Shown piece by piece: positions 2,812-26,493 of a DNA stretch of 64,000 nucleotides. Origin of the DNA: Nitrospirota bacterium (lineage in GTDB: Bacteria; Nitrospirota; Thermodesulfovibrionia; Thermodesulfovibrionales; Dissulfurispiraceae). Each line of letters begins with the position of its first letter. Position 1 is the first letter of the stretch. The stretch is taken from the NCBI GenBank assembly GCA_963710375.1, contig CAVPZX010000005.1:192001-256000 (forward strand). Reading direction: 5' to 3'. The notes below the pieces were generated by a model. That model saw only the letters and a program-made list of their open reading frames with translations. It ran no database searches and was not told the DNA's origin. Made by a program: the position numbers and the translations under genes.

Positions 2812-3227
2812 AGAGGGCAAAGGGCGAAGGGCAAAGGGCAAAGGGTTTTACGCTCATAGAATTACTCATGGTTATCACCATTATCGGGATGATGTTCTCC
2901 GTGAGCGTTCCGATTTCCTATTCCATTTACCAGCGCTATCAGGCATCCCTCAAAGCGGAAAAGGTCTTGACCTTTGTCAGCTCCCTGAAGTTGGAGGCCT
3001 TTTTGTACGGACGGGATAGGCTTATCGAGTCAAAGGAGGGCAGGATGCTCATTGACGGGACTGATCCGGGAGGGTTTAATGATATGTTTATCCAGGTAGA
3101 CAACCCCATCACGTTTTACAGGACGGGTACTACTTCCGGGGGTCAGATCAAGGTGTATGCTGATAGCAATACCTTTCTTATAGTAATACAGGCCCCTTTC
3201 GGAGGACTCGTGATGAAATCGGCATAA
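2808..3227 (+). CDS. Minor pseudopilin (GspH-like)
   Basis: Prepilin site G|FTLIELLMVITII; leader peptide is encoded by AGGGCAA repeats. Confidence 0.85.
   Translation: MKRAKGEGQRAKGFTLIELLMVITIIGMMFSVSVPISYSIYQRYQASLKAEKVLTFVSSLKLEAFLYGRDRLIESKEGRMLIDGTDPGGFNDMFIQVDNPITFYRTGTTSGGQIKVYADSNTFLIVIQAPFGGLVMKSA
2814..2845 (+). repeat. 7-nt tandem repeat (AGGGCAA x about 4.5) encoding the prepilin leader
   Basis: agggcaa agggcga agggcaa agggcaa aggg. Confidence 0.9.
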
Positions 3228-3228
3228 T

Positions 3229-3681
3229 ATGGCAAAGGGCAAAGGGCAAAGGGCAAAGGGTAACGAGAGAGGTTTTCTGATCCTTGAGGTCATGATCGCG
3301 AGCCTGATTCTGACCGCCGGTGTCGCAGCGACCATGTATCTTTTCAGGCTCGGATTTCAGTATCTGGAACGGGCGAATGATTCCAACCTGATCTCGTCCA
3401 AACTGCCTCAGGTCATCAACTTCCTGAAGGTGCTCGATATGGAAGCACAGAGCGGGACCGAAGATATGGGTGATGATGTTATAATGCATTGGGACGCCAA
3501 GCTAATCGAGACGGTGCGGCCTGTACATGATACACCTGATGGCAAGGAGTCCCATCCCTTTAATCTGTACCTTTATAAGGTGAACATACGCCTCGATTAT
3601 AAAAATCTGAACAGGGACTACAAAATAAATATATTCAGGAGTTCCAGGCTTAATGAGACTCATTTGCCGCGGGAATTTTAG
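3229..3681 (+). CDS. Minor pseudopilin (GspI-like)
   Basis: G|FLILEVMIASLIL with Glu at +5; position in operon. Confidence 0.8.
   Translation: MAKGKGQRAKGNERGFLILEVMIASLILTAGVAATMYLFRLGFQYLERANDSNLISSKLPQVINFLKVLDMEAQSGTEDMGDDVIMHWDAKLIETVRPVHDTPDGKESHPFNLYLYKVNIRLDYKNLNRDYKINIFRSSRLNETHLPREF
3231..3260 (+). repeat. 7-nt tandem repeat (AGGGCAA) encoding the prepilin leader
   Basis: ggcaa agggcaa agggcaa agggcaa aggg. Confidence 0.9.
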
Positions 3682-6551: not shown

Positions 6552-6654
6552 AGAAGTTGAGAAGTTGCGAAGGTGAGAAGATGAGAGAAAGGATACTGCG
6601 TGAAAATGTGGGTTTGGGGTCTCAACTTCACAACTTCACAATTTCTCAACTTCT
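6552..6654 (+). repeat. Intergenic inverted-repeat hairpin built of 8-nt units (GAGAAGTT/AACTTCTC)
   Basis: 35-nt arms 6552-6586 and 6620-6654; 30/35 Watson-Crick plus one G-U by manual alignment. Confidence 0.9.
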
Positions 6655-10804: not shown

Positions 10805-11016
10805 TAGTGCATCTTTAAAGCTTTAGGCAGAGGCGGTAAATGTTTAAAATGAAATTAATCATCGGTTGTTATTTAGGGTTAGAGTAAATGAAATTCAGTA
10901 ATCAAGGAGGTGATGAGAAAAGCCGATCCTTGGGAGAGTAAGGAAGCAGGAAGTGCGAACACTTTGCGGTTATCATCATTATTATTTATTATTTATCAAA
11001 AAAAGGAGGATTGAAA

Positions 11017-12591
11017 ATGACTAAGTTTTTAAAGGTTTCTTTTTTAGCAATGTTGATTGTTGCCGTAATGGCATTGCCGGCCTTTGCAGGCACCATTACA
11101 TTTTGGGGTTCACCTGGCGGTACAAGTGGTGCAGCTAATGTCAAATATTCAGTTGCCTTGGAGGCAATGAATGCTGCGAGAAATTTCACTATAACCAGTT
11201 CATCCGGGACAACCGGCTCCGGATACGCTAATGCGCCATTAAAAATCACCCCCGGCCAGCAATTGGCCAGCGGCTCATTGTTGACTATCACATTGGCAAA
11301 TGCCGCGTTTAATGCCGGAGCTACCGGAAGCGTACTTTTGTGCGCTGCTACCAGCGATACCGCGTCAGTAGACGTCCCTGTTGCGGCCCAGCAGCCTGCA
11401 GCAAACAGCGCAAGCTTGTCGTGGGTATTAGGTACTACAGTATCCACCGGCCAATTTCTCTTTGTGACAACGTCTGGGACAACATCTTGCAGTAACAGTA
11501 ATGCAAGCTTGAGTGTTCAGTTCCAGCCTGTCTCATCAGCAGCCTTGGCCTCGGTTTCTTATACTGTTTCCCTGAACTCAACCACGTATGACCAAAAATC
11601 GGCTGTCAATTTCGCTAACTTTGCTAGGGAGTTCACAACAGCTTACGCAAATTTACCTTCTACAATTGATTATACGACGAACAGCGCTTCAAACGGAGCC
11701 CATTTTGTTGTAGGTACAGGAGCTAATGCTGCCAACGCGGGTACGGCGAATATTGCTCGCGGCACGGTAGATTTTAGTGCTGAGGCCGTCGGCGCCACCG
11801 GTGCCAGCCTTTCAGTAGCAGGTATATTGTCCCTTCAGGATTCAGCATCCTGGCAGGGTGTGAAGGATGCTTATGTGCTTGGTAGTGCTGGTGGTGGTAA
11901 TAATTGTGCCGCCGCTGGGCCTGGAGCTAATAACGCGATAGTACAAGGCGCTGCAAATCTTGGCACTGGAACAGTGAACCTGGCTGTATCTTCAGCCGCA
12001 TTTAATGGTGCGGCGTCCTATGCTGCGGTTGCGTGCGTTGATGTGCTGGGCAATACTGTTCTTCAGTCCAGGTCGATCAAGGGATTCTACACTGTCAACG
12101 GTGGAGTCGCTGATGTTGATTCCGCGACACTCCTTATGACCTGGTCACCTAACGGTTATCAGGCAATAATTCCGTATATTAACGGATCCTCGACATTCGA
12201 CACGATATGCACCATCAGTAACCAGGGCGCAACTGCTGCACCTGCGACTGCTACTTTACTTTCAGCAGAGAGCATAGGCGCGGCTGGAGGATCTATTCCA
12301 ACAGGTGCACAGGGTATTAGCCTGGGTACAGTGCCGGCTAATGGACTAATACGTGTAGACTTTACTTCATCAATTACGCCTTACACGTATAGCGGTGGTG
12401 TTGAGACCGCAGGCACGGCAGTTGCGATTCCTGGCGTCCAGGGTAATGACAGGATGTCTGTCATACTGAATGTCGGAGCAGGTGTAACTGCGATTCAGAC
12501 AAATTGCATTCAAACGGATACCCTTGCTGGTGTCAAGAGAAATGTGCCGGTGCTGACGCAAACCAGTGGCACAGTTCCATGGCAGCAGTAA
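11017..12591 (+). CDS. Secreted cell-surface protein, probable S-layer subunit
   Basis: SD AAGGAGGA; Sec signal ending PAFA; A/G/S/T/N/V-rich with few charged residues; own promoter and terminator; adjacent to T2SS. Confidence 0.7.
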   Translation: MTKFLKVSFLAMLIVAVMALPAFAGTITFWGSPGGTSGAANVKYSVALEAMNAARNFTITSSSGTTGSGYANAPLKITPGQQLASGSLLTITLANAAFNAGATGSVLLCAATSDTASVDVPVAAQQPAANSASLSWVLGTTVSTGQFLFVTTSGTTSCSNSNASLSVQFQPVSSAALASVSYTVSLNSTTYDQKSAVNFANFAREFTTAYANLPSTIDYTTNSASNGAHFVVGTGANAANAGTANIARGTVDFSAEAVGATGASLSVAGILSLQDSASWQGVKDAYVLGSAGGGNNCAAAGPGANNAIVQGAANLGTGTVNLAVSSAAFNGAASYAAVACVDVLGNTVLQSRSIKGFYTVNGGVADVDSATLLMTWSPNGYQAIIPYINGSSTFDTICTISNQGATAAPATATLLSAESIGAAGGSIPTGAQGISLGTVPANGLIRVDFTSSITPYTYSGGVETAGTAVAIPGVQGNDRMSVILNVGAGVTAIQTNCIQTDTLAGVKRNVPVLTQTSGTVPWQQ

Positions 12592-12616
12592 AAATGTAGT
12601 AATAGGTCTTTCAGAG

Positions 12617-12646
12617 AAGAGGCGGACTTTTGTCCGCCTCTTTTTT
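12617..12646 (+). terminator. Rho-independent terminator
   Basis: aagaggcggac-tttt-gtccgcctctt followed by a T run. Confidence 0.9.
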
Positions 12647-12705
12647 GTATAAAAATTAACCACAGAGACATAGAGTCAGAGGGGATGAAAGAGGGAGGTA
12701 TAAAA

Positions 12706-13179
12706 TTGGGCTCTAAAAAGTCATTAATATGCATTTTTTTGTTTTCTGCCGTGGTACTTTTCTTAACGGATGCGCGCTCTGAAGAAAATCATTGGAAGTT
12801 TATGGGCAAGACAAAGGACACCCATTATCTTATATATTACGATACAGCGAACGTTGACTACATAAGAAAAGACTATGTGCGTGTGAGACTTAAAAAGGAA
12901 CTCTCGGAAGAGGGATTAGTGCAGTTCAGGAAGGATTTCTATTCTTCTGTTAAAACCGCCGAGGAACAGTCAGGAGGCAAAGTGGAAAACCCGGAGCCCC
13001 TTTTGAAAGCGTTGGCAAAACACGAGACAAAGGAGTATCCAATCGATATTGACTGCTCCAGCAATGAGTTGAAAGTGCAGCCTGACAAGATGTCGGCAAT
13101 CAATATTGTTGTTGTCGATGAAATACAGGCAGGTACGGCATTTGAGAAAATAAGAGACGAGGTTTGCCCGAAAAAATGA
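12706..13179 (+). CDS. Small secreted protein, surface-adhesin-E-like
   Basis: Signal peptide; W.FMG....Y.YD...V.V..K, IDC and C-terminal EVC pattern. TTG start follows GGAGG (alternative ATG at 12685). Confidence 0.55.
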   Translation: MGSKKSLICIFLFSAVVLFLTDARSEENHWKFMGKTKDTHYLIYYDTANVDYIRKDYVRVRLKKELSEEGLVQFRKDFYSSVKTAEEQSGGKVENPEPLLKALAKHETKEYPIDIDCSSNELKVQPDKMSAINIVVVDEIQAGTAFEKIRDEVCPKK

Positions 13180-13230
13180 GGAGCCTGTCGGCTTGCTTTT
13201 TTGTTATTCTCTGTTTTATTATTCAACTCC

Positions 13231-15141
13231 ATGTCTAAATCAAAAGAAAAATCAAAAGAAAACCACTCGACAGTAATGCGAAAGGAGATGGCCTCAGAGG
13301 GGACCGCAGACAGTATTGTCGTCCATGAATATCCTTCCGTCGTAGAGTGGTTTAAGACCGTTGCAACCAACATAACCAACAACTGGTTCATTATCGGACT
13401 GGCGATATTCGCGGTATTTGTTGCTTTCATGTTTTATTATCCATCGGTGGGTGGCGACGAAGACATTTGGTTTCATATCAGATATGGATATCACTTTGTC
13501 CATAACATGACATGGAAGATAAACCACGCACAGTTCAACTGGATCCCTTTTGAACCTAATTTCAAGTATGTGACCTGGATAGGAAGCTCCATACTTTATA
13601 TATTCTATGCTCTGATGTCGCATTACGGGCTCTATCTGCTCCAATACATAGTCATAGGCTCTATTGTGGGCTGCTTCCTTTATTTCCTTAAAAAAACAGC
13701 ATACCGCTTCGATATTACAAGTCTGCTGGCAATGCTGGCTGTCCTTCTGGTTTTGAACCTCAAATACCTCTATATCAAGCCGGATATGTTCAGCGGATTG
13801 TTGTTTACCGTTGCCTGCATGCTTTACTATAAGGTCAAGGAAACCGGAAACTGGAGACTGTTTTATGTCTATCCGCCGATGTTCCTCCTCTGGGTTAATA
13901 CTCATGGCGGCTTCATAGTGGGACTATTCTTTATAAGCGCCGCACTCGGATGCGAATTCGTTAATTCCTTCATATTCAGGAATGCGAGACTCGACAACAA
14001 AAGCCTTCTGCATTTTGCGTTAAACGTTGTCCTTAGCTATGCCGTTATCGGTATAAACCCTGAAGGCTATGGCTACTTTACAGGCATAATCAGCGATTTT
14101 TTCTCTCCGGGGATGAAAACGACAGAGGCAATCATAGCTGAATATGGCAGCATGTGGGGCACTCTTTTGCTTAAACCTGCAGGTTTCAGGTTTAAATTTG
14201 CAGCATTTTCAATGCTCGCTATGCTTGTAGTGTTTATCGGAATATGCATTTATCTTATCAAGAAGAAGAAATTCTTTGATATGCCGTCCGTCTTTCTTGT
14301 TGTCTTTTTCTATATCTTTGCAATGTCCATTGTTCGCGCATCCCAATATTATCCCCTTATCTGGTTCTTTGCCTTTTTTTACGTTTATAAGCGGTTCGAT
14401 GCCGTAAAGATCAAAGGCGTCTTCAACTTTATATCCCTGTTAATAATATTCATGTTGTGCTTTAGAATAGTCAATTTGGCGCTTGTTGATTATGACTCGA
14501 TTGCATGGTTTGGCACCAACTGGGAGGAAAGCTACCCTGTCAAGGAAGTGCAATACATAAAGAAGGCGAACCCTCCGGGCAATTTGTGGAATGATTACTT
14601 GACGGGAGGCTATCTCTTATGGGCACTGTATCCCAAATACAAGGTCTTCGTCGATCCGCGCTACGGCGGATACATGGCAAACTTTATGCCCACGGCCGAG
14701 GAGTATAAAGATGCTAAAGGACTGGAGGCGTATACAAAGAGGTTCCCCTTCAAGGTGGCCATCGTGGCTTATCATGAAACTCAGATTATCGAATGGCTTC
14801 TGAAAGCGGATTGGAGGATTGCCTTCCTGGACAAGAACGCCCTGGTAATTGTCAATAAGTCGGTGATCCCCGAGCTGTCGAAAGCTGCCCTGGAAGAGGA
14901 CGTCAGCACCAATAGATTTTTGAATGTCGATAACCCCAACATTCTCAGGACATTGTTTAATTTCTATGTAAACCTTGGTCCAAGTTTCGGAAGGGAGATT
15001 ATAGAAATATACCAGAGGAACGTCAGAACAATCTACAGGAACAGGGATTCCGATCTGAACAACATGCGGAATTTTCTTGAACAGAAAGAGGCCGAGATAG
15101 CTGCGCAGAAAGGCAAAGGCAAGACTGGACAAACAAAATGA
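13231..15141 (+). CDS. Polytopic membrane protein, probable GT-C-fold glycosyltransferase
   Basis: More than ten TM segments; acidic DEDIWFH after TM1; WVNTHGGF; periplasmic C-terminal domain with NDYLTGGYLLW and VFVDPR. Confidence 0.6.
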   Translation: MSKSKEKSKENHSTVMRKEMASEGTADSIVVHEYPSVVEWFKTVATNITNNWFIIGLAIFAVFVAFMFYYPSVGGDEDIWFHIRYGYHFVHNMTWKINHAQFNWIPFEPNFKYVTWIGSSILYIFYALMSHYGLYLLQYIVIGSIVGCFLYFLKKTAYRFDITSLLAMLAVLLVLNLKYLYIKPDMFSGLLFTVACMLYYKVKETGNWRLFYVYPPMFLLWVNTHGGFIVGLFFISAALGCEFVNSFIFRNARLDNKSLLHFALNVVLSYAVIGINPEGYGYFTGIISDFFSPGMKTTEAIIAEYGSMWGTLLLKPAGFRFKFAAFSMLAMLVVFIGICIYLIKKKKFFDMPSVFLVVFFYIFAMSIVRASQYYPLIWFFAFFYVYKRFDAVKIKGVFNFISLLIIFMLCFRIVNLALVDYDSIAWFGTNWEESYPVKEVQYIKKANPPGNLWNDYLTGGYLLWALYPKYKVFVDPRYGGYMANFMPTAEEYKDAKGLEAYTKRFPFKVAIVAYHETQIIEWLLKADWRIAFLDKNALVIVNKSVIPELSKAALEEDVSTNRFLNVDNPNILRTLFNFYVNLGPSFGREIIEIYQRNVRTIYRNRDSDLNNMRNFLEQKEAEIAAQKGKGKTGQTK

Positions 15142-15918: not shown

Positions 15919-16027
15919 GAAGTTGAGAAATTGAGAAGATGTGAAGATGAGAAAAAGAAATGTAAGCCTGATTTGTTGTCGCGCACCTTCTCACCTTCTC
16001 AGCTTCCCATCTTCGGATCGCCGAAGG
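15919..16027 (+). repeat. 8-nt-unit inverted-repeat hairpin immediately upstream of the four-helix-bundle gene
   Basis: gaagttgagaaattgagaagatgtgaagatgagaa (15919-15953) and caccttctcaccttctcagcttcccatcttc (to 16014), then cttcgg-atcg-ccgaag. Confidence 0.85.
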
Positions 16028-16031
16028 TGTG

Positions 16032-16433
16032 ATGGTGGGCAATAGTCAGAAAATAAAAAGTGTTAGGGATTTGGATGTTTATAAGATGGCTTTCAATGCG
16101 GCAATGGACATTTGGCAGATAACAAACGGTTTTCCCAAAGAAGAAAAATATTCTCTTGTAGATCAAATAAGGCGTTCTTCAAGATCTGTATGTTCAAATC
16201 TTGCAGAAGCGTGGCGAAAGAGGCGATATAAAGCCGTGTTCAAGAATAAGTTGACTGATGCTATGCAAGAGGCTTCTGAAACGCAGACATGGCTGGAGTT
16301 CAGTGTTGCTTGTAAATATGTTGATCAAAATAAATTTGATGACTTTGATCAAAAATATGAACATATATTAGCTATGTTGAATAATATGGACTTGAAAGCT
16401 GAATCCTTCTGCTTCTCAACTTCTGATAAATAA
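16032..16433 (+). CDS. Four helix bundle protein (23S rRNA IVS-encoded protein family)
   Basis: DLDVYK.AF...FPKEEKYSLVDQIRRSSRSVCSNLAEAWRKRRY...EASETQTWLEF family signature. Confidence 0.93.
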   Translation: MVGNSQKIKSVRDLDVYKMAFNAAMDIWQITNGFPKEEKYSLVDQIRRSSRSVCSNLAEAWRKRRYKAVFKNKLTDAMQEASETQTWLEFSVACKYVDQNKFDDFDQKYEHILAMLNNMDLKAESFCFSTSDK

Positions 16434-17638
16434 TGTTTAGGGACGTATATAGAGGTAAGCAAGTATTAATCACTGGTCACACGGGATTCAAAGGCTCTTG
16501 GCTTGCCCTGTGGCTCAGAGAGTTAGGAGCGAATATAATCGGTTATTCCCTTGATCCACCTACAAACCCCAATCATTTTGATTTGCTAGCCTCTTCTCAG
16601 GTTCTCACCTTCTCATCTTCTCAACTTCCCAACTTCATCTCTATTTTCGGAGATATACGGGATGTAAAGAAGCTGAATCAGACCTTTCAGAACTATAAGC
16701 CTGATATAGTCTTCCACCTCGCTGCACAACCTCTCGTCAGGTATTCATATAAACATCCGCTCGATACATTTGAGACAAATGTGATAGGGACAATAAATGT
16801 TCTTGAAGCTTGCAGACAGACTGAATCAGTCAGGGCAGTAGTAAATATAACGAGCGACAAGTGCTATGAAAACAAAGAATGGGTATGGGGCTATCGTGAG
16901 AGTGACCCGTTTGGCGGTTACGACCCCTACAGCGCATCAAAAAGTTGCGCAGAGCTTGTGACTAACTGTTACAGGCGCTCTTTCTTTATAACTGAAACTG
17001 AGAAGTTGAGAAGGTGTGAAGGTGAGAGTAAAGCCGAAGGACTCACAACTTCTCAACTTCTCAACTTCACAACTTCAGTCCTTTTAGCCAGCGCAAGAGC
17101 GGGCAATGTCATAGGCGGCGGAGATTGGGCAGCGGACAGATTGATTCCCGACATTATGAGGGCGGTCAGCCGGAATAAGAAGGTTGTTATCAGAAATCCC
17201 AAGTCAACCCGTCCCTGGCAGCATGTGCTGGAGCCGTTGTCAGGTTATCTGGCGCTTGGGCAGAAGCTCTTGGAAGGGAAATCGGAATTTGCCGATGGGT
17301 GGAATTTTGGGCCTGATGATGAAAGCAACATATGTGTTGAAGAAGTTGCAGAAAAGATGACCAGCTTCTGGCATAAAATTGGTTACCAACGCAAACCATT
17401 TAAACATCCAAGCCTCCGGCCATCCGACCCTCATGAGGCTGGTCTGTTAAAACTTGACTGCTCGAAAGCCCATTCAAGGCTTGAGTGGAAACCTGTCTGG
17501 GATATTAAGAAAACGCTTGTAATGACCGCTCAATGGTATAAAGAGTTTTACGAACGTGATGGAATAATGAGTCAGAAGGATTTGGATGAGTATATTCTGA
17601 ATGCGAAGGAAAAAGGTTTGCGTTGGGCAGTTGATTGA
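16433..17638 (+). CDS. rfbG: CDP-glucose 4,6-dehydratase with two repeat-derived in-frame insertions
   Basis: TGHTGFKGSWL, HLAAQPLVR, TSDKCYEN, DPYSASK, RAGNVIGGGDW, RPWQHVLEPL. Confidence 0.96.
   Translation: MFRDVYRGKQVLITGHTGFKGSWLALWLRELGANIIGYSLDPPTNPNHFDLLASSQVLTFSSSQLPNFISIFGDIRDVKKLNQTFQNYKPDIVFHLAAQPLVRYSYKHPLDTFETNVIGTINVLEACRQTESVRAVVNITSDKCYENKEWVWGYRESDPFGGYDPYSASKSCAELVTNCYRRSFFITETEKLRRCEGESKAEGLTTSQLLNFTTSVLLASARAGNVIGGGDWAADRLIPDIMRAVSRNKKVVIRNPKSTRPWQHVLEPLSGYLALGQKLLEGKSEFADGWNFGPDDESNICVEEVAEKMTSFWHKIGYQRKPFKHPSLRPSDPHEAGLLKLDCSKAHSRLEWKPVWDIKKTLVMTAQWYKEFYERDGIMSQKDLDEYILNAKEKGLRWAVD
16593..16636 (+). repeat. Pyrimidine-rich 8-nt tandem array in frame inside rfbG
   Basis: cttctcag gttctcac cttctcat cttctcaa cttcccaa cttc encodes SSQVLTFSSSQLPNF. 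Confidence 0.88.
16991..17079 (+). repeat. In-frame 8-nt-unit hairpin inside rfbG
   Basis: 39-nt arms (16991-17029 and 17041-17079), 32/39 complementary, 11-nt loop. Confidence 0.92.
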
Positions 17639-17662
17639 GCAGGTTTGTCGGAAGACTCCTAC

Positions 17663-19108
17663 ATGGAAAGAAGAGAACAACTAAAACAGGAAATATTTGA
17701 GAGAATAAGGGCATTTTATCAGCTTGTGCATGAGACATCCCACAATGCAGAGTTTGTTGCAGGCAAAAGTCGCATAAACTATGCAGGCCGGGTATTTGAT
17801 GAAGAAGAGATGATTAATCTTGTCGATAGTTCCCTTGATTTCTGGCTTACAACAGGCAAATATGCCGAAAGGTTTGAAAAAGAATTTGCAGATTTCCTTG
17901 GAGTGAAATATTGCTCTCTTGTCAATTCAGGGTCTTCAGCTAATCTCCTCGCGTTTATGGCGTTAACATCTCCGAAGCTCGGTGATAGAAGCATTCAGAG
18001 GGGCAATGAGGTCATAACAGTAGCAGCAGGTTTCCCAACCACAGTCGCTCCCATCATTCAGTATGGCGCTGTGCCGGTATTTGTTGATGTTACGCTGCCG
18101 GCATACAACATAGATTGTTCGCAGCTCGAAAATGCACTATCAGATAAAACAAAGGCTGTAATGGTCGCGCATACCCTCGGCAATCCCTTCGATATCCGGA
18201 CGGTAAAAACGTTCTGCGATAAACATAATCTCTGGCTCATCGAGGATAACTGCGACGCTCTTGGCAGTAAATACCGAAGGTGGGAAGTTGAGAAGGTGAG
18301 AAGTTGTGAACGTGAGAAGGCAGGCCCAACTTCACAACTTCACAACTTCCCACCTTCGGAGCTTTACGGCTACACCGGGACTTTCGGGCATATTGGAACG
18401 TCGAGTTTTTATCCGCCCCATCATATGACTATGGGAGAAGGCGGCGCTGTTTATACGAACGATATTCAGCTCAAAGGGATAATAGATTCTTTCCGTGACT
18501 GGGGCAGGGACTGCTGGTGTGTGTCGGGTAAAGACGATACATGCAAAAAACGCTTTAAATGGCAGCTCGGAGAACTTCCTTACGGATATGATCACAAATA
18601 TATCTATTCCCATTTCGGGTATAACTTAAAGGTTACCGACATGCAGGCGGCTATAGGCTGTGCGCAACTCGAAAAGCTGCCCTTTTTTATTGAAGCAAGA
18701 AAGAAAAACTGGAGTCTTCTGAGGGACGGGCTGCATGACCTTTCAGATAAGTTTATCCTGCCTGAGCCTACTGCGAATTCAGAGCCATCCTGGTTTGGGT
18801 TCCTGTTGACTGTGAAGGAGAGCGCGGGTTTTACGAGGGATGAGATAGTGAATTATCTTGAATCAAATAACATCCAGACACGTATGCTCTTTGCAGGAAA
18901 TATACTGAAGCATCCCTGCTTCGATGAAATGAGAAAAACCGGCCACGGTTTCCGTGTCATTAGGGACTTACCGGTAACTGACCGCATAATGCGCGACAGT
19001 TTTTGGGTTGGGGTCTATCCGGGGATGAAAGAAGAGGCGATCGAATATGTCATGCAAAAGATAAAAGAGTATGCAAGACATGAACAATCGATTCCCGGTT
19101 TAGGGTAA
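17663..19108 (+). CDS. rfbH: CDP-4-keto-6-deoxyglucose 3-dehydrase (E1) with in-frame hairpin insertion
   Basis: NSGSSANL, AAGFPTT, SFYPPHHMTMGEGG (His replacing the Schiff-base Lys), RDWGRDCWC, GYDHKY. Confidence 0.95.
   Translation: MERREQLKQEIFERIRAFYQLVHETSHNAEFVAGKSRINYAGRVFDEEEMINLVDSSLDFWLTTGKYAERFEKEFADFLGVKYCSLVNSGSSANLLAFMALTSPKLGDRSIQRGNEVITVAAGFPTTVAPIIQYGAVPVFVDVTLPAYNIDCSQLENALSDKTKAVMVAHTLGNPFDIRTVKTFCDKHNLWLIEDNCDALGSKYRRWEVEKVRSCEREKAGPTSQLHNFPPSELYGYTGTFGHIGTSSFYPPHHMTMGEGGAVYTNDIQLKGIIDSFRDWGRDCWCVSGKDDTCKKRFKWQLGELPYGYDHKYIYSHFGYNLKVTDMQAAIGCAQLEKLPFFIEARKKNWSLLRDGLHDLSDKFILPEPTANSEPSWFGFLLTVKESAGFTRDEIVNYLESNNIQTRMLFAGNILKHPCFDEMRKTGHGFRVIRDLPVTDRIMRDSFWVGVYPGMKEEAIEYVMQKIKEYARHEQSIPGLG
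18274..18359 (+). repeat. In-frame 8-nt-unit hairpin inside rfbH
   Basis: 33-nt arms (18274-18306 and 18327-18359), 30/33 complementary, outer 17 bp perfect. Confidence 0.93.
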
Positions 19109-21199
19109 TATTTCATTCAGCAATTGCCGGGTTTTTTGGTCATCCGGCTTTATCTTTAACCTTGTCATCAATTGAATGCGCGCATTTTCTATAATATCCG
19201 GTCTCAGGCGCAGGGCAGTTTCGAATTCATTTTTGGCCTTGTCAAGTCTGTCGCTGTCGTAATAAACAAGGCCAAGATTAAAATGTGCTTCTGCGTAATC
19301 GGGCGCAAGTTTAATGGCAATCAGATACTGCTCAATAGATTTGTCAGGCATGTTGATGGCATGATAGGCAATGCCGAGATTATTATGTGCCTCAGCATAA
19401 TCAGGCTTGAGTTTAATGGCAATGATATATTGCTCAATAGCATTGTCAAGCATGTTGCGACTTTTATAAAAATTACCAAGTCTGGCATGTGCATTTGCGT
19501 AACGGGGGAATCTTTTAACTGTATCTTCCCACATTTTTTTGCTGTCTCCATATAGATTGTTCTGCAAATGAGCTGCGACTGACAGAATGCTTATAATAAG
19601 GGCGAGCGTCACTAGTATCACATTGCCGGCTTTCTGTGAACGAATTTTTTCTTTCAGCAGAAATACCCCCGTAACTGTGCAAATGATTACCCCGACCGAG
19701 GGCAGATACATTCGATACGTTTCAATAAGCCTCGGCGTAGGTATAATGCTCGATTCAACTGAAAGGGTGATAAAGAACCACAATATACCGAAACCCATCA
19801 AACGAAAAGCAGGACTAAGGGCAGAGGACTGAGAGGCGAGGACTGAGGACTGAGGACTGAGAGACGAGGACTGAGAGGCGAGGACTGAGGACTGAGGACT
19901 GAGAGACGAGGACTGAGAGGCGAGGACTGAGTTTTCGTCTTCGCGCTTTGCCCTCAGTCCTTTGCCCTTAGTCCTCAGTCCTGGACCCTCTTCCTTTGGC
20001 CCTTTCCACTCAGTCCTCAGTCCTTCGCCCTCAGTCCTCAGTCCTCGCCTCTCTTTTTTCTGCACTAAATAAATCCCCAGTCCAAATAGCGCTGAGAGAA
20101 ACACAAATGAAACGGATACCTGCGGTTGAAAAAAAGACTTAAACACAGGGTACTCATAATTGAGTTCCAGGTTTGCCGGGAAAAACAGCATTCGCAGGTA
20201 AGTGACAATGACCCTGAACTGGGTGAAAAAATACTCTCCCCGCGAGTAGTCCCAGGTGAATCCGGCCATATATGAGCCCGGGTCAATAAGGCTGGGATTA
20301 ATCAGTTGTGTGCCGCGTACTTCGGTCACTGTCGGCATGCTCATAATAGTCAGAGGTATGATGCAAAGTGAAAGCAATAATGGAGCAAGAACGAGCATCC
20401 TCTTCTTAATGCCGCCATTAAAAAAACAAAACTCGTACAACGTTATCACAAAGGGCAGAGTAAACGCATTCTCCTTTGTTTTCATTGCCAGGACCGCTGA
20501 AAGAAGGGATATGGCGTACATAGTCCGGCGCCGGGCTTTATGATGGTCAGGAGCCTCCAATCTGAACTTAATATATGCTGTGAGGGAAAGGAGATAGAAA
20601 AAAGCGGCGAGAGAGGCATAACGTTGCATGACATACGTAACCGCCGCTGTCTGCAGCGGGTGGACGGCAAACAGAGCGGCGGAGAAGAAGGCAATCACTG
20701 CCGGATTGCCTGAACTTGAGAAATTGAGAACTTGTGAAGGTGTGCCCTTTGCCCTATGCCCTATGCCTTTCATGTAAGGTGTTCTGAATGTCAATAGAAC
20801 AAGCAAATAAACCAGGATTGTATTGGCGATATGAATGGCAATATTGACAATATGGTAGCCGGTCACCGATAAACCGTTTATACGGTAGTTGAGCGCAAAG
20901 GTGAGATGCGAGATGTAGCGGGATATGAAAAAACGGTAATTCTCAAACCCTTGAGCTGTTGAGGGGTGAAGGAAATAATTAAGGTCCTTGATAATAGGCT
21001 CGTTAACAATATGCATCTCTTCATCCCACTGAAATGGGACATTCAAGGCATTGGAGTAAATGATCAGAATAAGCAGAGACAGACAAGCGATATGCACAAA
21101 GGAGTTATATGTCAATGACAGCGGACTGAACGATGCATGTGCAGGGGGAAGGTCATTGTGACGGATCAGCTTATTTGTTTTCTTACCCTTGTTTTTCAT
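19100..21199 (-). CDS. TMTC-like membrane glycosyltransferase (GT-C) with C-terminal TPRs, paralog 1
   Basis: YSNAL..PFQWDE, YHIVNIAIH, AVHPLQTAAVTY, KTKEN, YRMYLPS, TPR repeats (YAEAHNNLG). Confidence 0.8.
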   Translation of the reverse strand: MKNKGKKTNKLIRHNDLPPAHASFSPLSLTYNSFVHIACLSLLILIIYSNALNVPFQWDEEMHIVNEPIIKDLNYFLHPSTAQGFENYRFFISRYISHLTFALNYRINGLSVTGYHIVNIAIHIANTILVYLLVLLTFRTPYMKGIGHRAKGTPSQVLNFSSSGNPAVIAFFSAALFAVHPLQTAAVTYVMQRYASLAAFFYLLSLTAYIKFRLEAPDHHKARRRTMYAISLLSAVLAMKTKENAFTLPFVITLYEFCFFNGGIKKRMLVLAPLLLSLCIIPLTIMSMPTVTEVRGTQLINPSLIDPGSYMAGFTWDYSRGEYFFTQFRVIVTYLRMLFFPANLELNYEYPVFKSFFQPQVSVSFVFLSALFGLGIYLVQKKERRGLRTEGEGLRTEWKGPKEEGPGLRTKGKGLRAKREDENSVLASQSSSLSPQSSVLASQSSSLSPQSSVLASQSSALSPAFRLMGFGILWFFITLSVESSIIPTPRLIETYRMYLPSVGVIICTVTGVFLLKEKIRSQKAGNVILVTLALIISILSVAAHLQNNLYGDSKKMWEDTVKRFPRYANAHARLGNFYKSRNMLDNAIEQYIIAIKLKPDYAEAHNNLGIAYHAINMPDKSIEQYLIAIKLAPDYAEAHFNLGLVYYDSDRLDKAKNEFETALRLRPDIIENARIQLMTRLKIKPDDQKTRQLLNEILP
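19811..20050 (-). repeat. In-frame 7-nt (GGACTGA/TCAGTCC) inverted repeat array in paralog 1
   Basis: Encodes RRGLRTEGEGLRTEWKGPKEEG...SVLASQSSSLSPQSS; purine-rich arm followed by its complement. Confidence 0.92.
20712..20770 (-). repeat. Mixed 7-nt (AGGGCAT/A) and 8-nt (TTCTCAA) in-frame insertion in paralog 1
   Basis: Minus strand reads aaggcatagggcatagggcaaagggcacaccttcacaagttctcaatttctcaagttc. Confidence 0.8.
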
Positions 21200-21217
21200 A
21201 AAAGATCCCTGACCGTT

Positions 21218-23867
21218 TCAGCGTGAGATTGCATTCAATAACTGACGGGCTATCTGGTCATCAGGCTTTATCTTTAATCTCGCTATCAACTCTCTGCGCG
21301 CATTTTCCAGTTGTCCCATATTATAGTAGAGGACTCCGAGATTAAAATGAGCTGTTTCATTATCCGGTTGGAGGCGTATGACAGTTTGTAATTCATTCAC
21401 GGCCTTGTCAGGCATGTTGAGGGACTGATAAAGAATAGCGAGATTATTGTGCGCTTCCACATAGTTGGGCTTCTCCTGTATTGCGGCCAGATAGTGTTCA
21501 GTTGCCTTGCCAGACATGCCCTGATCTTTATAGACATTGGCTAGATTATAATGCGCCTCAGGGTAATCAGGCTTCAGATTAATGGCAGTCTGAAACTCTT
21601 TTATAGCCTTGTCAGGCATGTTGAGGGCCTGATAAACAGCTCCCAGATTATTATACGCTTCTATAAAATCGGGTTTTAGATTAATGGCAGTCAGAAACTC
21701 TTTTATAGCCTTGTCAGGCATTTTGAGGGCCTGATCATAGAGGACGCCAAGATTGTAATGCGCCTTCCAGTGCCCAGGGGCAAGACTTATTGCAGTCAGA
21801 TATTCCTTTAAAGCAGCATCGGGCATACCGAGGTCTTGATAGCTGTTGCCGAGACCGAGATGCGCTTCAGTGGAATCAGGATTAATTTTCAAGGCAAGCT
21901 GAAACTGTTCCGCAGCCTTGTCCGACATGCGATGGTGTCGGTAGGCCAACCCAAGATTATAATGCACTCTTTCTTTTGCAGGGAATTTTAACGCGTCTTC
22001 TTTCCATAACTTGACTTCGTCTCTCCACATATCATTGCGCATATATGTAGCAACTGACAGTACGCCTGCAGCAAGTGCAAGAATGGTTACTATCACCCTA
22101 CCGGCTTTTGGGGAACGCAGATTTTCTTTCAGCAGAAATGCACCGGTAACAACGCAAACAAATATCCCCATTGAAGGCAGATACACGCGGTGTTCAAAAA
22201 TCACATCGGCGATGGGTATGATGCTCGACTCCACTGAGAGAGTGATGAAAAACCACAATATCCCGAAACCCATCAACTTAAAGGCAGGACTGAGGGCAGA
22301 GGACTGAGAGGCGAGGACTGAGGACTGAGGACTGAGTGCCAAGGACTGAGAGACGAGGGCAGAGGACTGAGGACTGAGAGACAAGGACTGAGAGGCGAGG
22401 ACTGAGGACTGAGTGTCAAGGACTGAGGACTGAGCAGAGAGGACTGAGTTTTGGTCTTCGATCTTTGCACTCAATCCTCTGCCCTCAGTCCTCAGTCCTG
22501 GATCCTCTTTCCTTTGGCCCTTTCCACTCAGTCCTCAGTCCTCTGTCCTCAGTCCTTGTTTTTTTCTCGCTCCACAGCACTAAATAAATGCCCAGCCCGA
22601 AAAGCGCGGCAAGAAACATAAACGAAAAGATCACCTGGGGGTAAAAGAAAGATCTATAAATAGGATAGTCATAGTCGACATTCTGTCCTGCGGGGAAAAA
22701 CAGCAGCCGCATATATCTCACAATTACTGAGAACTCCGTCATCAGGTATTGCCATGGCGTCGTCCTTGTCTGCACTGTTATCTTGCTCGCATCCGACAAT
22801 ACTTTCCCCAACGGCTGGCTCACATTCAGCAAGCTCAAAGGAATGATGACCACTGTTGCCAGCAGCGGCAAGGCCCATAGAGCCCTCCTGAGCAGATTGC
22901 CTCTGCCGAAGAACACCAGTTCGTACAACACAACAATAAACGGCAGTGTAAAGGCTATCTCCTTTGTCATCATCGCAAGCACAGCCGAAACAATAGAAAT
23001 CCCATAATAAAAATATGGCATGTATTTTCGTTTTTCCCGGCTACCGGCCACCGGCCCCTGGCCACTGTCTTTTGCTTCTTGCCCTCCGCCCTCAGTCCTC
23101 AGTCCTTGGTCCTCTGCCCTCAGTCCTCGCCTCTCAGTCCTCAGTCCTTGGTCCTCTGCCCTCAGTCCTCTGCTCTCAGTCCTCAGTCCTTGGTCCTCCG
23201 CCCTCAGTCCTCGCCTCTCAGTCCTCAGTCCTTGGTCCTCTGCCCTCAGTCCTCGCCTCTCAGTCCTCAGTCCTCTGCCCTCAGTCCTTGTTTTATTACC
23301 CTCAGTCCTTGACTTTATATATGTCACTAATGAAAGGAGATAAAAAAATGAAGCGAGGGACGCAAGCCTCTGCACTATATAAGTGACCGCCTGAGTTTGG
23401 ATAGGATGCACCGCAAACAAGACAGCAGAGAAGAAGGCGATCAGCCCGGAATCGCTGAGTACTAAAGACTGAGGACTTAGGACTGAGGGCATAGGACTGA
23501 GGACTGAGGACTGAGGACTCATGGCCGGTGTTCTGAATGTAAATAGCACAAATAAATAAACCAGCATGGAGTTAGCAATATGAATTGCAAGATTGACTAT
23601 ATGGTAGCCGGTCACATTTGAACCACCCAAGCTGTAGTTCAGGGAAAATGTCAGATACCCGATGAATCGTCTAGAAAAATGTTCATACCCTGTGGAACTG
23701 AACAGAAAATTTCCGATATGACGCACTATACTGTTATCAATTATGTTGAATTCATCGTCAAATACAAACGGCGCATGAAAAGTATTAGAATAACAAATCA
23801 GGCATAATAGAGCTATAATGCCGGCATGTAAGAGCTGGGAATTATGATTTTGATTTGGAAATTTCAT
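21218..23867 (-). CDS. TMTC-like GT-C + TPR protein, paralog 2; split by a +1 frameshift near 22508-22510
   Basis: ORFs 22485-23867 (FVFDD, AVHPIQT) and 21218-22474 (EHRVYLPS, TPRs) join if one T is removed from ctctttcc; both paralogs read ctcttcc here. Confidence 0.8.
22286..22556 (-). repeat. 7-nt inverted repeat array in paralog 2 (site C)
   Basis: ggactga units 22286-22447 followed by tcagtcc units to about 22556. Confidence 0.92.
23090..23309 (-). repeat. 7-nt array with 42-nt higher-order repeat in paralog 2 (site B)
   Basis: GLRTE(R/S)RGLRAEDQ occurs four times in tandem. Confidence 0.93.
23455..23519 (-). repeat. 7-nt array in paralog 2 (site A)
   Basis: Encodes SPQSSVLSPMPSVLSPQSLVLS. 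Confidence 0.88.
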
Positions 23868-26091
23868 TCAGCAACTGTCGGACATTTTGGTCGTTAGGTT
23901 TTATCCTTAATATCGTTGTCAATTCCCTGCGTGCCTTTTCTTTCTGTCCCCTCTCATAATAGAGTTCTCCAAGATTGGAATGCGCCTCTATATAATCGGG
24001 CTTCAGTTTAATGGCAATCAGATAATATTCTATGGCCTTGTCGGGCATTTTCTGGTCTTCATAGATTACGCCAAGATTATTATACGCCTCTGCGCAGTCA
24101 GGCTTTAGTTTAACAGCAATCAGATACTCTTTTAAAGCCCTTCCACGCATGCTGCGGGACTGATAAAACACGCCACCCAGATCAAGATGGGCCTCCACAT
24201 AATCAGGCCTCAGTTCTACGGCAGTCATAAACTCTTTTATAGCTTTCTCGGGCATTTTACGATCTTTATATATATTGCCAAGGTTATAATGTGCCTCAGG
24301 TAAGTCCGGATTAAGCTTGGAAGCAATCATAAACTGCTCAATCGCCTTGTCAGGCATATTACGGTCTCGGTAGATAACCCCGAGGTTATTGTATTCCTCT
24401 GCAGAATCAGGTTTCAGCCCAATGGCAATCCGGTACTGCTCTATGGCTTCATCGAACTTTTTTTGAGACTGATAGAGGCGACCAAGATTATAATGCGCCC
24501 TTTCCTTGGCAGGTGATTTTGCCACGACGTCTTTCCACAGTCTTATACTGTCTCCCCACACTTCGTTCCGCAGATACGTAGCGACCGACAAAACTCCTAT
24601 AGCAAGGGCCAGCATCAAGATTATTACCCTGCCGTACCTGGGCGAACGCACCTTTTCTATTAACAAAAAGGCCCCTGTAACTGTACAAATAATCATTCCT
24701 ATTGAAGGCAGATAAGCACGGTGCTCGTAAATTACATCAGTGATAGGTATTATGCTTGACTCGACCGAAAGAGTGATAAAAAACCACAATATACCAAAAC
24801 CCATCAAACGAAAAGCAGGACTGAGAGGCGAGGACTGAGAGGCGAGGACTGAGGACTGAGCAGTTAGGACTGAGTTTTGGTCTTCGCGCTTTGCACTCAG
24901 TCCTTTGACCTCAGTCCTCAGTCCTGGACCCTCTTCCTTTGGCCCTTTCCACTCAGTCCTCAGTCCTCTGTCCTCAGTCCTTGCTTTATTACCCTCAGTC
25001 CTCAGTCCTTGGTCCTTCGTCTTCAGCACTAAATAAATGCCCAGCCCGAAAAGCGTCACCAGAAACAGAAGCGACAGCATCACCTGGGGATAGAAGAAAG
25101 ATCTATACACCGGATAGTCATAATCGAGGTTCTGCCCTGCAGGGAAAAACAGCAGCCGCACATACGTCACGATCACAGTGAACTCTGTTATCAGATACTG
25201 CCACCGCGTCATGCTTGTTCCCGCCGCAGTCACCTGATTCACATCCGACAACACCTTCCCCAACTGTTGGCCCACATTCAGCATGCTCAGTGGAATGATG
25301 ACCACTGTTGCCAGCAGCGGTAAGGCCCATAGCGTCCTCTTAATCAGATTGCCTCTGCCGAAAAACACCAACTCGTAAATCACAATGATAAACGGCAGCG
25401 TAAAGGCTATCTCCTTTGTCTTCATCGCCAGCACCGCAGAGATAATAGAGATGCTGTAGAAGAAGAGATACCGGAAGTTGCCCTTTGCCCCGCCTGAGGC
25501 GGGCCCTCTGCCCTCTGCTATTAGCCTGAACCGAACATAAAAGTACAACGAGGCAACATAAAACAAAGCTGCCAAAGACGCAAGCCGCTGCACTATGTAT
25601 GTCACTGCCTCGGTTTGGATAGGATGCACCACAAATAACGCGGCAGAAAAAAAGGCAATCAGATTAGAATTTCTGAGGACCGAGGACTGAGGACTGAGAG
25701 GCAAGGACTGAGGACTGAGAGACGAGGACTGAGGGTTCATTAACGGAGTCCTGAATGTAAGCACCACCAATCCATAAACCAGAAGCGCACAGGCCAGATG
25801 TATGGCAAGATTTACTACATGGTAGCCGGTCACATCAAGGCCGCCCAAGCGGTAGTTCAGGGCGAATGTCAGAAACCCTATAAAACGGCGGGGATTATTT
25901 TCATATCCTTTGGAGCTGAAGATAAAATTGCCGATATCATGGACTACCCTGTTATCCCTTATAGAGTATTCGTCGTCAAATATAAACGGCACATGGAAAC
26001 TGTTGGAATAGACGATTATTCCTGCCAAAATTATCAGGAAGGGATAAAAAAAATGATGGGCCGTTGCTGAATTCTTTGCCTTCCGAAACAT
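23842..26091 (-). CDS. TMTC-like GT-C + TPR protein, paralog 3
   Basis: YSNSF..PFIFDD, YHVVNLAIH, VHPIQTEAVTYIVQR, MKTKE, EHRAYLPS, multiple TPRs. Confidence 0.82.
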   Translation of the reverse strand: MFRKAKNSATAHHFFYPFLIILAGIIVYSNSFHVPFIFDDEYSIRDNRVVHDIGNFIFSSKGYENNPRRFIGFLTFALNYRLGGLDVTGYHVVNLAIHLACALLVYGLVVLTFRTPLMNPQSSSLSPQSLPLSPQSSVLRNSNLIAFFSAALFVVHPIQTEAVTYIVQRLASLAALFYVASLYFYVRFRLIAEGRGPASGGAKGNFRYLFFYSISIISAVLAMKTKEIAFTLPFIIVIYELVFFGRGNLIKRTLWALPLLATVVIIPLSMLNVGQQLGKVLSDVNQVTAAGTSMTRWQYLITEFTVIVTYVRLLFFPAGQNLDYDYPVYRSFFYPQVMLSLLFLVTLFGLGIYLVLKTKDQGLRTEGNKARTEDRGLRTEWKGPKEEGPGLRTEVKGLSAKREDQNSVLTAQSSVLASQSSPLSPAFRLMGFGILWFFITLSVESSIIPITDVIYEHRAYLPSIGMIICTVTGAFLLIEKVRSPRYGRVIILMLALAIGVLSVATYLRNEVWGDSIRLWKDVVAKSPAKERAHYNLGRLYQSQKKFDEAIEQYRIAIGLKPDSAEEYNNLGVIYRDRNMPDKAIEQFMIASKLNPDLPEAHYNLGNIYKDRKMPEKAIKEFMTAVELRPDYVEAHLDLGGVFYQSRSMRGRALKEYLIAVKLKPDCAEAYNNLGVIYEDQKMPDKAIEYYLIAIKLKPDYIEAHSNLGELYYERGQKEKARRELTTILRIKPNDQNVRQLLNEISKSKS
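24818..25016 (-). repeat. 7-nt inverted repeat array in paralog 3 (site C)
   Basis: Encodes DQGLRTEGNKARTEDRGLRTEWKGPKEEG...SVLTAQSSVLASQSS. Confidence 0.92.
25673..25734 (-). repeat. 7-nt array in paralog 3 (site A)
   Basis: Encodes PQSSSLSPQSLPLSPQSSVLR. Confidence 0.88.
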
Positions 26092-26103
26092 ATCCCCTGA
26101 CAG

Positions 26104-26493
26104 CTATCTTCCTGTTTTGGAGGGCGTTGTCCTGTCCTCTGTCCCTATCTTTTTTTCCAGGGTCTTAAGTTTTGTTTGCAGCAAACCCAACTCCTGGGCA
26201 AGACGGTTGTTTTTTACGTCCAGCAGGGATATTATTGTCGAGAAATGCAGGAGCAGCACCAGCAGAAATACAATTGCAAGGAGGAACAGGAACGACGGCG
26301 GGTAATAGATGCCTATCATATTTGATATCAGACTAAGCAGGTTCCTCGATACAGAAAAGCTTATTAAAACTATCGAAGCGGCAAGCCATATGAGGCTGTA
26401 GCGCTCCTTAAGGTGGCTGCGCCTTATGAGTTCTATGACTGCGAAAAATATTGAGACACTGACAGTAATAGCAACAACCTGGACGATATCCAT
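26104..26493 (-). CDS. DUF2304-like small membrane protein
   Basis: LKERYSLIW, GIYYPPSFLF and LAQELGLL pattern; typical neighbour of GT2 genes. Confidence 0.8.
   Translation of the reverse strand: MDIVQVVAITVSVSIFFAVIELIRRSHLKERYSLIWLAASIVLISFSVSRNLLSLISNMIGIYYPPSFLFLLAIVFLLVLLLHFSTIISLLDVKNNRLAQELGLLQTKLKTLEKKIGTEDRTTPSKTGR

What the first reader, a model, noticed from the sequence alone, without database searches (positions are those of the whole stretch)
19100..26091. Three TMTC-like paralogs carry different repeat expansions at the same three loop positions
Site A (after TFRTP), site B (after YIK/VRFR) and site C (after GLGIYLV) hold different tracts in each paralog. Site A is mixed 7/8-mer in paralog 1 and TCAGTCC arrays in 2 and 3. 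Site B is empty in 1, about 220 nt in 2 and short in 3. Site C is a 200-270 nt inverted array in all three with a shared EWKGPKE core. In paralog 2, sites A and B are complementary to each other and bracket the conserved HPIQT.AVTY.VQR segment. This is an internal series showing hot-spot gain and expansion.
Basis: seen in the sequence. Interest (0 to 1): 0.7.

Follow-up and report, generated by a model that had tools for sequence, protein, structure and literature searches.

The report
Repeat hairpins fill glycosyltransferase inner loops
Three neighbouring copies of a predicted membrane sugar-transferase gene carry in-frame runs of 7- and 8-base DNA repeats in loops predicted to face the cytoplasm; the same repeats litter the genome and flank small four-helix-bundle genes, and one loop insert was likely copied from gene to gene rather than gained three times.

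Summary
In detail: sites A, B and C are homologous and the tracts are real. The interpretation needs changing.

A, B and C are three of the five predicted cytoplasmic loops of an 11-TM GT-C/TMTC-like fold. In 217 family genes, 177 of 180 short-period arrays lie in those five loops and none in the outward-facing loops.

The repeat words belong to a genome-wide family. Seven of the eight inserts tested match the arms of four-helix-bundle (PF05635) gene cassettes in this genome.

Site C is not three gains. Paralogs 1 and 3 lie in different clades yet share 98 of 102 bases there, which points to copying between paralogs.

The A-B pairing in paralog 2 is real but faces the wrong way for one element (3 of 147 pairs genome-wide do).

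Four sequencing runs lack the extra base, so it is probably an assembly error.

The scan has noted this repeat family, and similar loop filling, on other DNA. Verdict: an RPE-like variant of moderate interest.

The parts
19100..21199 (-). Paralog 1: predicted 11-TM GT-C/TMTC-like glycosyltransferase with C-terminal TPRs, 699 aa
21218..23867 (-). Paralog 2: split in this assembly into ORFs 22485-23867 and 21218-22474; intact (840, 854 or 882 aa) in other assemblies
23842..26091 (-). Paralog 3, 749 aa
20702..20776 (-). P1 site A (loop TM2-TM3): purine arm of the GGCATAG/GGCAAAG 7-mer family plus pyrimidine arm of the TTCTCAAC 8-mer family, matching two different four-helix-bundle cassettes
20519..20560 (-). 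P1 site B (loop TM4-TM5): no repeat
19811..20062 (-). P1 site C (loop TM8-TM9): AGGACTG arm, unique core, CAGTCCT arm; core 98 of 102 nt identical to P3
23445..23525 (-). P2 site A: lone CAGTCCT arm
23007..23306 (-). P2 site B: lone AGGACTG arm with 42-nt higher-order repeats; begins with a non-repeat spacer otherwise found only in P3 site C
22286..22577 (-). P2 site C: inverted AGGACTG/CAGTCCT array with the shared core; folds as a hairpin (z = -6.9)
22508..22508 (.). Extra base that frameshifts P2 in this assembly; left out in the contigs of four runs; likely an assembly error
25663..25743 (-). P3 site A: lone CAGTCCT arm
25459..25524 (-). P3 site B: short decayed tract, no match to any cassette arm above background
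24817..25026 (-). P3 site C: inverted AGGACTG/CAGTCCT array with the shared core
15919..16433 (+). Four-helix-bundle gene (16029-16433; PF05635, TIGR02436) preceded by an inverted 8-mer array of the same word family as the 8-mer half of P1 site A

Best explanation
The three genes encode predicted 11-TM GT-C (TMTC-like) glycosyltransferases whose predicted cytoplasmic loops carry in-frame pieces of a genome-wide family of hairpin repeats built from 6-8-base words; such pieces likely arrive at many places but survive only where extra disordered sequence is harmless, and were likely spread between paralogs by gene conversion. Step 1, shown: the words and some spacer sequence match the arms of four-helix-bundle gene cassettes in the same genome. 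That those cassettes are the donors is inferred. Step 2, shown as a pattern: arrays sit in the five inward loops and the protein ends, never in the loops that form the active site, and the catalytic residues stay conserved. That selection causes this is inferred. Step 3, inferred from the tree and the identity profile: one site-C module was copied between paralogs of different clades with only short flanks, and a piece of it also appears at site B. Step 4, inferred: arrays grow and shrink by slippage in frame-keeping steps of 21 or 42 nt. The split of paralog 2 is likely an assembly error. The inserts are likely tolerated passengers with no function of their own.
For: Fold: the AlphaFold model of intact P2 (P0128) has mean pLDDT 81.7, with segments under 50 only at residues 1-5 and inside the B and C inserts. 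Its membrane part matches Pmt1 (Z 21.6, 366 aligned, rmsd 4.3), Pmt4 (Z 21.2) and archaeal AglB (Z 19.7). Position: 177 of 180 arrays in 78 of 217 genes lie in loops A, B, D, C and E; 0 lie in 42 kb of outward loops of those 78 genes; 3 more lie in the extreme C-terminal tail. Loops A, B, D, C and E are K/R-rich in array-free genes and map to TM2-3, 4-5, 6-7, 8-9 and 10-11 of the TMTC topology (PMC7801869). Catalytic positions are as conserved in the 78 array genes as in the 139 others. Source: all 6 PF05635 genes over the cut-off have their own repeat arms. Seven of 8 inserts tested score 44-150 against a cassette, against a background 95th percentile of 23-25. Of 40 exact AGGACTGAGGACTG hits in the genome, 22 are in the trio, 17 at or near the cassette region at C5:267-278 kb and 1 in a paralog on C2. 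Copying: the P1-P3 site-C core is 98 of 102 identical with about 50 nt of near-identical right flank, while binned identity across the membrane domain is 42-84%. A clade of the site-C carriers is rejected (AU p = 3.5e-78). The distant C2 paralog carries the same module with its own flanks. Length steps: P2 840/854/882 aa, P1 685/699 aa, and site A 7 aa shorter in P0123.
Against: No insertion, conversion or slippage event was observed: only contigs were available, no raw reads. The 42-nt length differences between assemblies could be assembler collapse. The cassette match is not genome-specific: in five relatives 22 of 59 array-bearing loops had no own-genome cassette match of score 30 or more, and the best match was often another genome's cassette. 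G009 has a PF05635 gene but 0 of 5 sampled paralogs with arrays, and four other PF05635-positive genomes had 0 of 1 each. A pure survival filter does not explain why only this family is hit: 5 of 183 multi-TM ORFs have an internal arm and all 5 are these paralogs. Loop borders were drawn by me after seeing the array positions, and the genes are not independent. The runs differ from the window at three substitutions, so the frameshift could be strain-specific.
Confidence: 0.68

Rival explanations
1. The arrays arise in place by slippage and template switching on look-alike seeds. Cassette arms and loop inserts share words only because the same genome-wide process, or the same binding protein, favours those words; the cassettes are not donors.
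For: Repeat-free relatives read SSLAPQS at site A, close to the array's own reading SSLSPQS. 22 of 59 loops in relatives lack an own-genome cassette match. Heptamer slippage is a proposed bacterial habit (introduction of PMC4679880).
Against: Non-repeat spacers are shared between sites (P2-B with P3-C) and resemble spacers in the cassette arm. P1-A joins arms of two unrelated families. Site-A DNA of the more distant repeat-free relatives does not resemble the word; DNA of the closest ones was not available.
Confidence: 0.14
2. One reading: A, B and C are sequence-specific hot spots that each paralog filled independently.
For: A, B and C hold arrays in 43, 31 and 47 genes against 7 and 6 for loops D and E. 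The family is far more colonised than other membrane proteins. P1-A and P2/P3-A are unrelated words.
Against: About 30 different units occur per site, and peptide signatures of unrelated palindromic repeats occur in the same loops, so there is no element-specific target. Site C is one shared module.
Confidence: 0.09
3. The arrays are adaptive contingency loci: 7-mer slippage switches paralogs on and off or tunes a cytoplasmic loop to vary surface glycosylation, and the P2 frameshift is a real off state.
For: The genes sit in a surface-glycan locus (rfbG, rfbH, GT2 genes), and relatives keep many paralogs.
Against: The frameshift is one base in the non-repeat core, not a 7-mer step. It is absent from four runs and from six other members of the protein cluster. 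All other length variants seen keep the frame.
Confidence: 0.05
4. In paralog 2, arms A and B form a functional RNA or DNA stem that loops out, inverts or regulates the HPIQT..VQR segment.
For: They pair in a fold prediction (z = -6.5).
Against: Any two opposite arms of one word pair. The order is pyrimidine arm first, seen in 3 of 147 same-unit neighbour pairs, and within single loops the order was purine arm first in 24 of 24 clear cases. P1 and P3 lack such a pair. No strand-switch joints appear in the contigs.
Confidence: 0.03
5. The arrays are assembly artefacts.
For: Contigs break inside the longest arrays, and the assembly has at least one probable indel here.
Against: Contigs bridge all A sites and most of P2-C without other letters. 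Independent assemblies encode the same inserts.
Confidence: 0.01

Closest known systems
Rickettsia palindromic elements (RPEs; passages of review PMC10969869 read; Ogata 2000 and 2002 not read, recalled)
   Same: Palindromic repeats inserted in frame into protein-coding genes and read as extra peptide.
   Different: RPEs are families of about 150 bp with a conserved sequence and peptide. Here the arms are tandem 6-8-base words of many kinds, occur as half-elements and mixed arms, vary in copy number, and concentrate in one membrane-protein family.
Heptamer repeats of Xanthomonas and Nostoc (PMC4692102) and TAACTGA repeats of Beggiatoaceae (PMC4679880); passages read
   Same: 7-base words in short runs, genome-wide. 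Xanthomonas has 70-75 close inverted pairs per genome, and a minority lie in ORFs.
   Different: Those papers treat one word per genome, mostly intergenic. PMC4679880 has 0 hits for 'helix bundle', 'S23' or 'intervening'. Here many words coexist, six of them flanking four-helix-bundle genes.
ORF-bearing 23S rRNA intervening sequences, S23p / four-helix-bundle protein (PF05635, TIGR02436; PMC4990558 seen as search listing and start of abstract only)
   Same: The same protein family, flanked by complementary arms.
   Different: The cassettes here lie between protein-coding genes, and their arms are tandem words that recur inside other genes.
TMTC1-4 protein O-mannosyltransferases, GT-C/PMT clan (PMC7801869; passages and section 7 part 1 read)
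   Same: 11 TM segments, acidic pair in EL1, HP motif ending TM3, K-E motif in EL3, ERxLY-like motif in EL5, C-terminal TPRs. Human TMTC2 also has an unusually long TM8-TM9 cytoplasmic loop, the position of site C.
   Different: No PF08409 match over the cut-off; SHKSYRP and DW are not kept; donor sugar and substrate are unknown.

Membership tests
GT-C fold glycosyltransferase | Multi-TM GT-C fold | tested here: met
   The model of P0128 aligns to Pmt1 6p2r (Z 21.6, rmsd 4.3, 366 aligned, model residues 4-623), Pmt4, AglB and STT3B. Foldseek listed only TPR matches.
GT-C fold glycosyltransferase | Acidic residue pair in the first external loop | tested here: met
   DD in P2 and P3, DE in P1; first D in 77 of 78 and 138 of 139 genes.
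GT-C fold glycosyltransferase | Transfers sugar from a lipid-linked donor | not testable with these tools
   Needs an assay.
TMTC (TMTC1-4 type) | 11 TM segments plus C-terminal TPR domain | tested here: met
   My reading of the model's helices and Pfam TPR hits. Orientation is taken from PMC7801869 and the K/R bias, not measured.
TMTC (TMTC1-4 type) | K-E motif in EL3 and arginine motif in EL5 | tested here: met
   KTKE/MTKE and EHRxYLP, with a variant in P1.
TMTC (TMTC1-4 type) | PF08409 (DUF1736) over the cut-off; SHKSYRP and DW motifs | tested here: not met
   Best genome match E = 0.04, 15.6 bits against a cut-off of 27, on the C3 paralog; no hit. So TMTC-like, not filed as TMTC.
Rickettsia palindromic elements | In-frame insertion into ORFs | tested here: met
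   All inserts keep the frame apart from the doubtful base at 22508.
Rickettsia palindromic elements | Palindromic, hairpin-forming element | tested here: met
   Met for site C (z = -6.9). Sites A and B of P2 and site A of P3 are lone arms.
Rickettsia palindromic elements | Conserved element of about 150 bp encoding a conserved peptide | tested here: not met
   About 30 different units per site and variable length. Works like an RPE; not a member.
MITE | Terminal inverted repeats, target-site duplication and a cognate transposase | not tested
   No target-site duplication was evident in the site-C alignments, but it was not searched for systematically, and no transposase search was run.
Four-helix-bundle / 23S rRNA IVS protein (PF05635, TIGR02436), for the neighbouring gene | Profile score over the cut-off | tested here: met
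   Window 16029-16433: PF05635 115 bits, TIGR02436 103.6 bits.
Diversity-generating retroelement Avd, for the neighbouring gene | Avd profile over the cut-off | tested here: not met
   NF033474 27.4 against a cut-off of 80; PF22296 25.4 against 40.

The most novel reading that the evidence does not exclude
Four-helix-bundle cassettes drive an undescribed arm-copying process: each cassette's repeat arm is written into new sites, can replace one arm of an older element (P1 site A joins arms of two cassettes), and homes from one paralog's loop to the same loop of its relatives. The TMTC-like family, where only the cytoplasmic loops keep the record, would be a natural reporter for what this orphan Avd-like protein does.
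Probability: 0.17. Interest if true: 0.78.

Novelty: new variant of a known kind. Interest (0 to 1): 0.4.

Why it matters
It is a clear case of selfish-looking repeats becoming protein sequence, with a strict positional rule (177 of 180 arrays in the five predicted inward loops). That rule marks where bacterial TMTC-like enzymes tolerate inserts and independently supports their topology. The trio also shows loop modules moving between paralogs against the gene tree, which no simple slippage model gives. If the four-helix-bundle cassettes are the donors, these genes offer a way to test the function of that orphan family. As a locus it is not a new system: the repeats are a lineage-wide habit.

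Tried and rejected
Programmed frameshift or real pseudogene in P2: disfavoured, because the base is left out in X1, X3, X4 and X5. These runs come from two studies and one may be the window's source.

A-B stem as one element: rejected on orientation.

A strict ban on the periplasmic side: weakened, since 3 arrays lie in C-terminal tails after the TPRs.

Read-level length heterogeneity: not testable, all runs were contigs. No RNA holder was listed. X8 holds only a small share and gave nothing usable; X6 and X7 cover only patches.

A GxxExxY (TIGR04256) partner gene: not found in this genome.

Single-sequence fold of repeat-free P0006: failed (pLDDT 41) and was not used.

Foldseek and the sequence search of solved structures listed only TPR proteins among the rows shown.

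Literature searches returned no paper on these arrays in Nitrospirota, in TMTC-like loops, or tied to four-helix-bundle genes. The library lacks most subscription papers and no supplements were read. Ogata 2002 was not held.

Genomes without a PF05635 match had 0 of 16 sampled family genes with arrays, but every genome among these relatives with arrays in the family belongs to the window's own genus, so I give this no weight.
Full report
Observation. The window is G000:C5:192001-256000 of a 3.19 Mb, 9-contig genome. Named homologs are mostly Nitrospirota (Thermodesulfovibrionales, Ca. Sulfobium) and Geobacteraceae. Three tandem minus-strand genes, P1 19100-21199, P2 21218-23867 and P3 23842-26091, lie in a surface-glycan locus (rfbG, rfbH and GT2 genes). 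Between conserved anchors the sites measure, for P1/P2/P3: A 75/81/81, B 42/300/66 and C 252/292/210 nt.

P2-C is not a multiple of three, and P2 is split into two ORFs. Contigs of X1, X3, X5 and X4 leave out one base at 22508; the other four runs laid show no cover there. Of 7 members of P2's protein cluster, 5 are full length (840, 840, 840, 854, 882 aa), one is a 667-aa partial protein that reads through site C, and one is the window's own 460-aa piece. An assembly error is most likely (about 80%). The runs also differ from the window at three substitutions, so a strain-specific frameshift is not excluded.

The proteins. The model of intact P2 (P0128, 62-sequence alignment) has mean pLDDT 81.7; segments under 50 are residues 1-5, 226-264 (B) and 457-511 (C). 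Its membrane part matches GT-C enzymes: Pmt1 Z 21.6, Pmt4 Z 21.2, AglB Z 19.7, STT3B Z 18.0. I read 11 TM helices. With the TMTC topology (N-terminus inside, catalytic loops EL1-EL5 outside; PMC7801869), A is loop TM2-3, B is TM4-5 and C is TM8-9, all cytoplasmic. PF08409 is not met, so the proteins are TMTC-like, not filed as TMTC.

Family map. From the fetched loci, 734 ORFs of 350 aa or more were screened; 285 matched the membrane domain, 257 covered it and 217 were distinct (split P2 is not among them). 78 genes carry 180 arrays of period 6-8. By loop: A 43 genes and 31 units, B 31 and 28, D (TM6-7) 7 and 6, C 47 and 30, E (TM10-11) 6 and 5. In total 177 arrays lie in these five loops, 2 at the N-terminus and 1 in a TM segment. 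None lies in 42 kb of external loops of those 78 genes, although EL1 and EL4 take ordinary insertions of 10 aa or more in 6 and 7 genes. In 121 kb of TPR and tail sequence there are 3 arrays, all in the last 20 codons. Catalytic positions are equally conserved with and without arrays. Peptide signatures that I recall as belonging to other palindromic repeat families also fall in these loops (31 of 31, 17 of 17 and 11 of 15 hits). Caveats: I drew the loop borders after seeing the arrays, the genes are related, and decayed arrays are missed.

Where the words come from. The genome has about 490 arms of 6-8-base words (families listed). Same-unit neighbours within 450 nt run purine arm first in 144 of 147 pairs. 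All six PF05635 genes over the cut-off are flanked by arms, each of a different word. The AGGACTG cassette lies at C5:269.6 kb, 14 kb beyond the window's end, with a truncated second copy at 278.3 kb. Of eight inserts tested (P1-B is empty), six score 52-150 against that cassette. P1-A scores 46 against the 281 kb cassette (7-mer half) and 44 against the window's own cassette at 16029 (8-mer half). P3-B matches none. The background 95th percentile was 23-25; the high maxima (up to 244) probably came from windows that fell on these loci, which I did not check. In five relatives, 37 of 59 array-bearing loops scored 30 or more against a cassette of their own genome and 22 did not; the best match was often in another genome, so the words are a genus-wide pool. 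An earlier scan note (e1-9583103) suggested the one-cassette-one-word idea, which I then tested here.

Site C was copied, not gained three times. In a tree of 56 proteins without the loops, P1 groups with genes of G009 and G002 (support 99), far from P2 and P3. A clade of P1, P2, P3, P0123 and P0002 is rejected (AU p = 3.5e-78; quick tree, and the set was fixed after the tree was seen). Yet the P1 and P3 cores are 98 of 102 identical, with 13 identical bases on the left and about 50 near-identical on the right, against 42-84% in bins across the membrane domain. The distant paralog on C2 has the same module inside its own flanks, and the paralog just upstream of the window has a decayed version. 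P2-B starts with a spacer found elsewhere only in P3-C. In G005 one module likewise appears at A, B and C of different paralogs. Short-tract gene conversion fits best, and it would explain why all 5 of the 183 multi-TM ORFs with an internal arm are these paralogs, among 20 of 1626 ORFs overall. This enrichment is the part a plain survival filter does not explain.

A and B in paralog 2. They pair in a fold prediction (z = -6.5), but they form one of only three pyrimidine-first pairs in the genome; another is two separate inserts in rfbG. Within single loops the order was purine arm first in all 24 clear two-arm cases. I read A and B as two half-elements that happen to face each other.

Length change. 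Variants in other assemblies differ by 14, 28 or 42 aa at P2-B, 14 aa at P1-C and 7 aa at site A of P0123. All are multiples of 21 nt, the smallest frame-keeping step for a 7-mer. Assembler collapse could give the same, and no raw reads were available.

Comparison and verdict. The inserts work like Rickettsia palindromic elements (PMC10969869) but are not members. The words resemble the heptamer repeats of Xanthomonas, Nostoc and Beggiatoaceae. Eight literature searches found no description of this family in these loops or of its tie to four-helix-bundle genes. The scan's own notes report the family, and similar loop filling, on other DNA; these are unchecked AI notes and not support. What this locus adds is the family-wide five-loop rule, a mixed-arm insert traceable to two cassettes, and copying between paralogs against the gene tree. 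New variant of a known kind; interest 0.4.

Noticed in passing
window 15919-18357: A four-helix-bundle gene (16029-16433) with 8-mer arms. The same words sit in frame in the downstream rfbG (two places) and rfbH genes.
   Followed up: partly
G000:C5:278200-278500 (outside the window): Remnant cassette: AGGACTG arm, the first 22 or so codons of a four-helix-bundle gene like the one at 269.6 kb, then the CAGTCCT arm read in frame as the N-terminus of a GT2 glycosyltransferase.
   Followed up: partly
P0123, P0004, P0001: A database protein is nearly identical to P3 from just before site A onward but has a different N-terminus. P0004, listed with the same longest-contig length, has a P3-like N-terminus and a 6-mer-type site C. 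This suggests recombination between tandem paralogs near site A.
   Followed up: partly
L070, L037, L032, L033, L036: The same loops hold peptide signatures of other palindromic repeat families (labels recalled, not from a tool), often nested with the 7-mer arms.
   Followed up: partly
window 2814-2845, 3231-3345, 6552-6654: 7- and 8-mer arms at the starts of type II secretion-like pseudopilin and accessory genes, read as N-terminal peptide.
   Followed up: no
window 11011-15141: A 526-aa signal-peptide protein and a 646-aa multi-TM protein, both without Pfam or NCBIfam hits. By appearance a surface-layer-like protein and another GT-C-like enzyme; a possible substrate for the trio.
   Followed up: no
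window 26100-26150: Short decayed repeat (GGACAGA-like on the minus strand) at the end of the gene upstream of P3.
   Followed up: no
G005:C12:170-254 kb (L031-L033): A relative with about a dozen paralogs, six of them in tandem, with loop modules shuffled among sites.
   Followed up: partly
window 23672, 24012, 24292: Substitutions shared by all covering runs against the window: a strain difference or further assembly errors.
   Followed up: no
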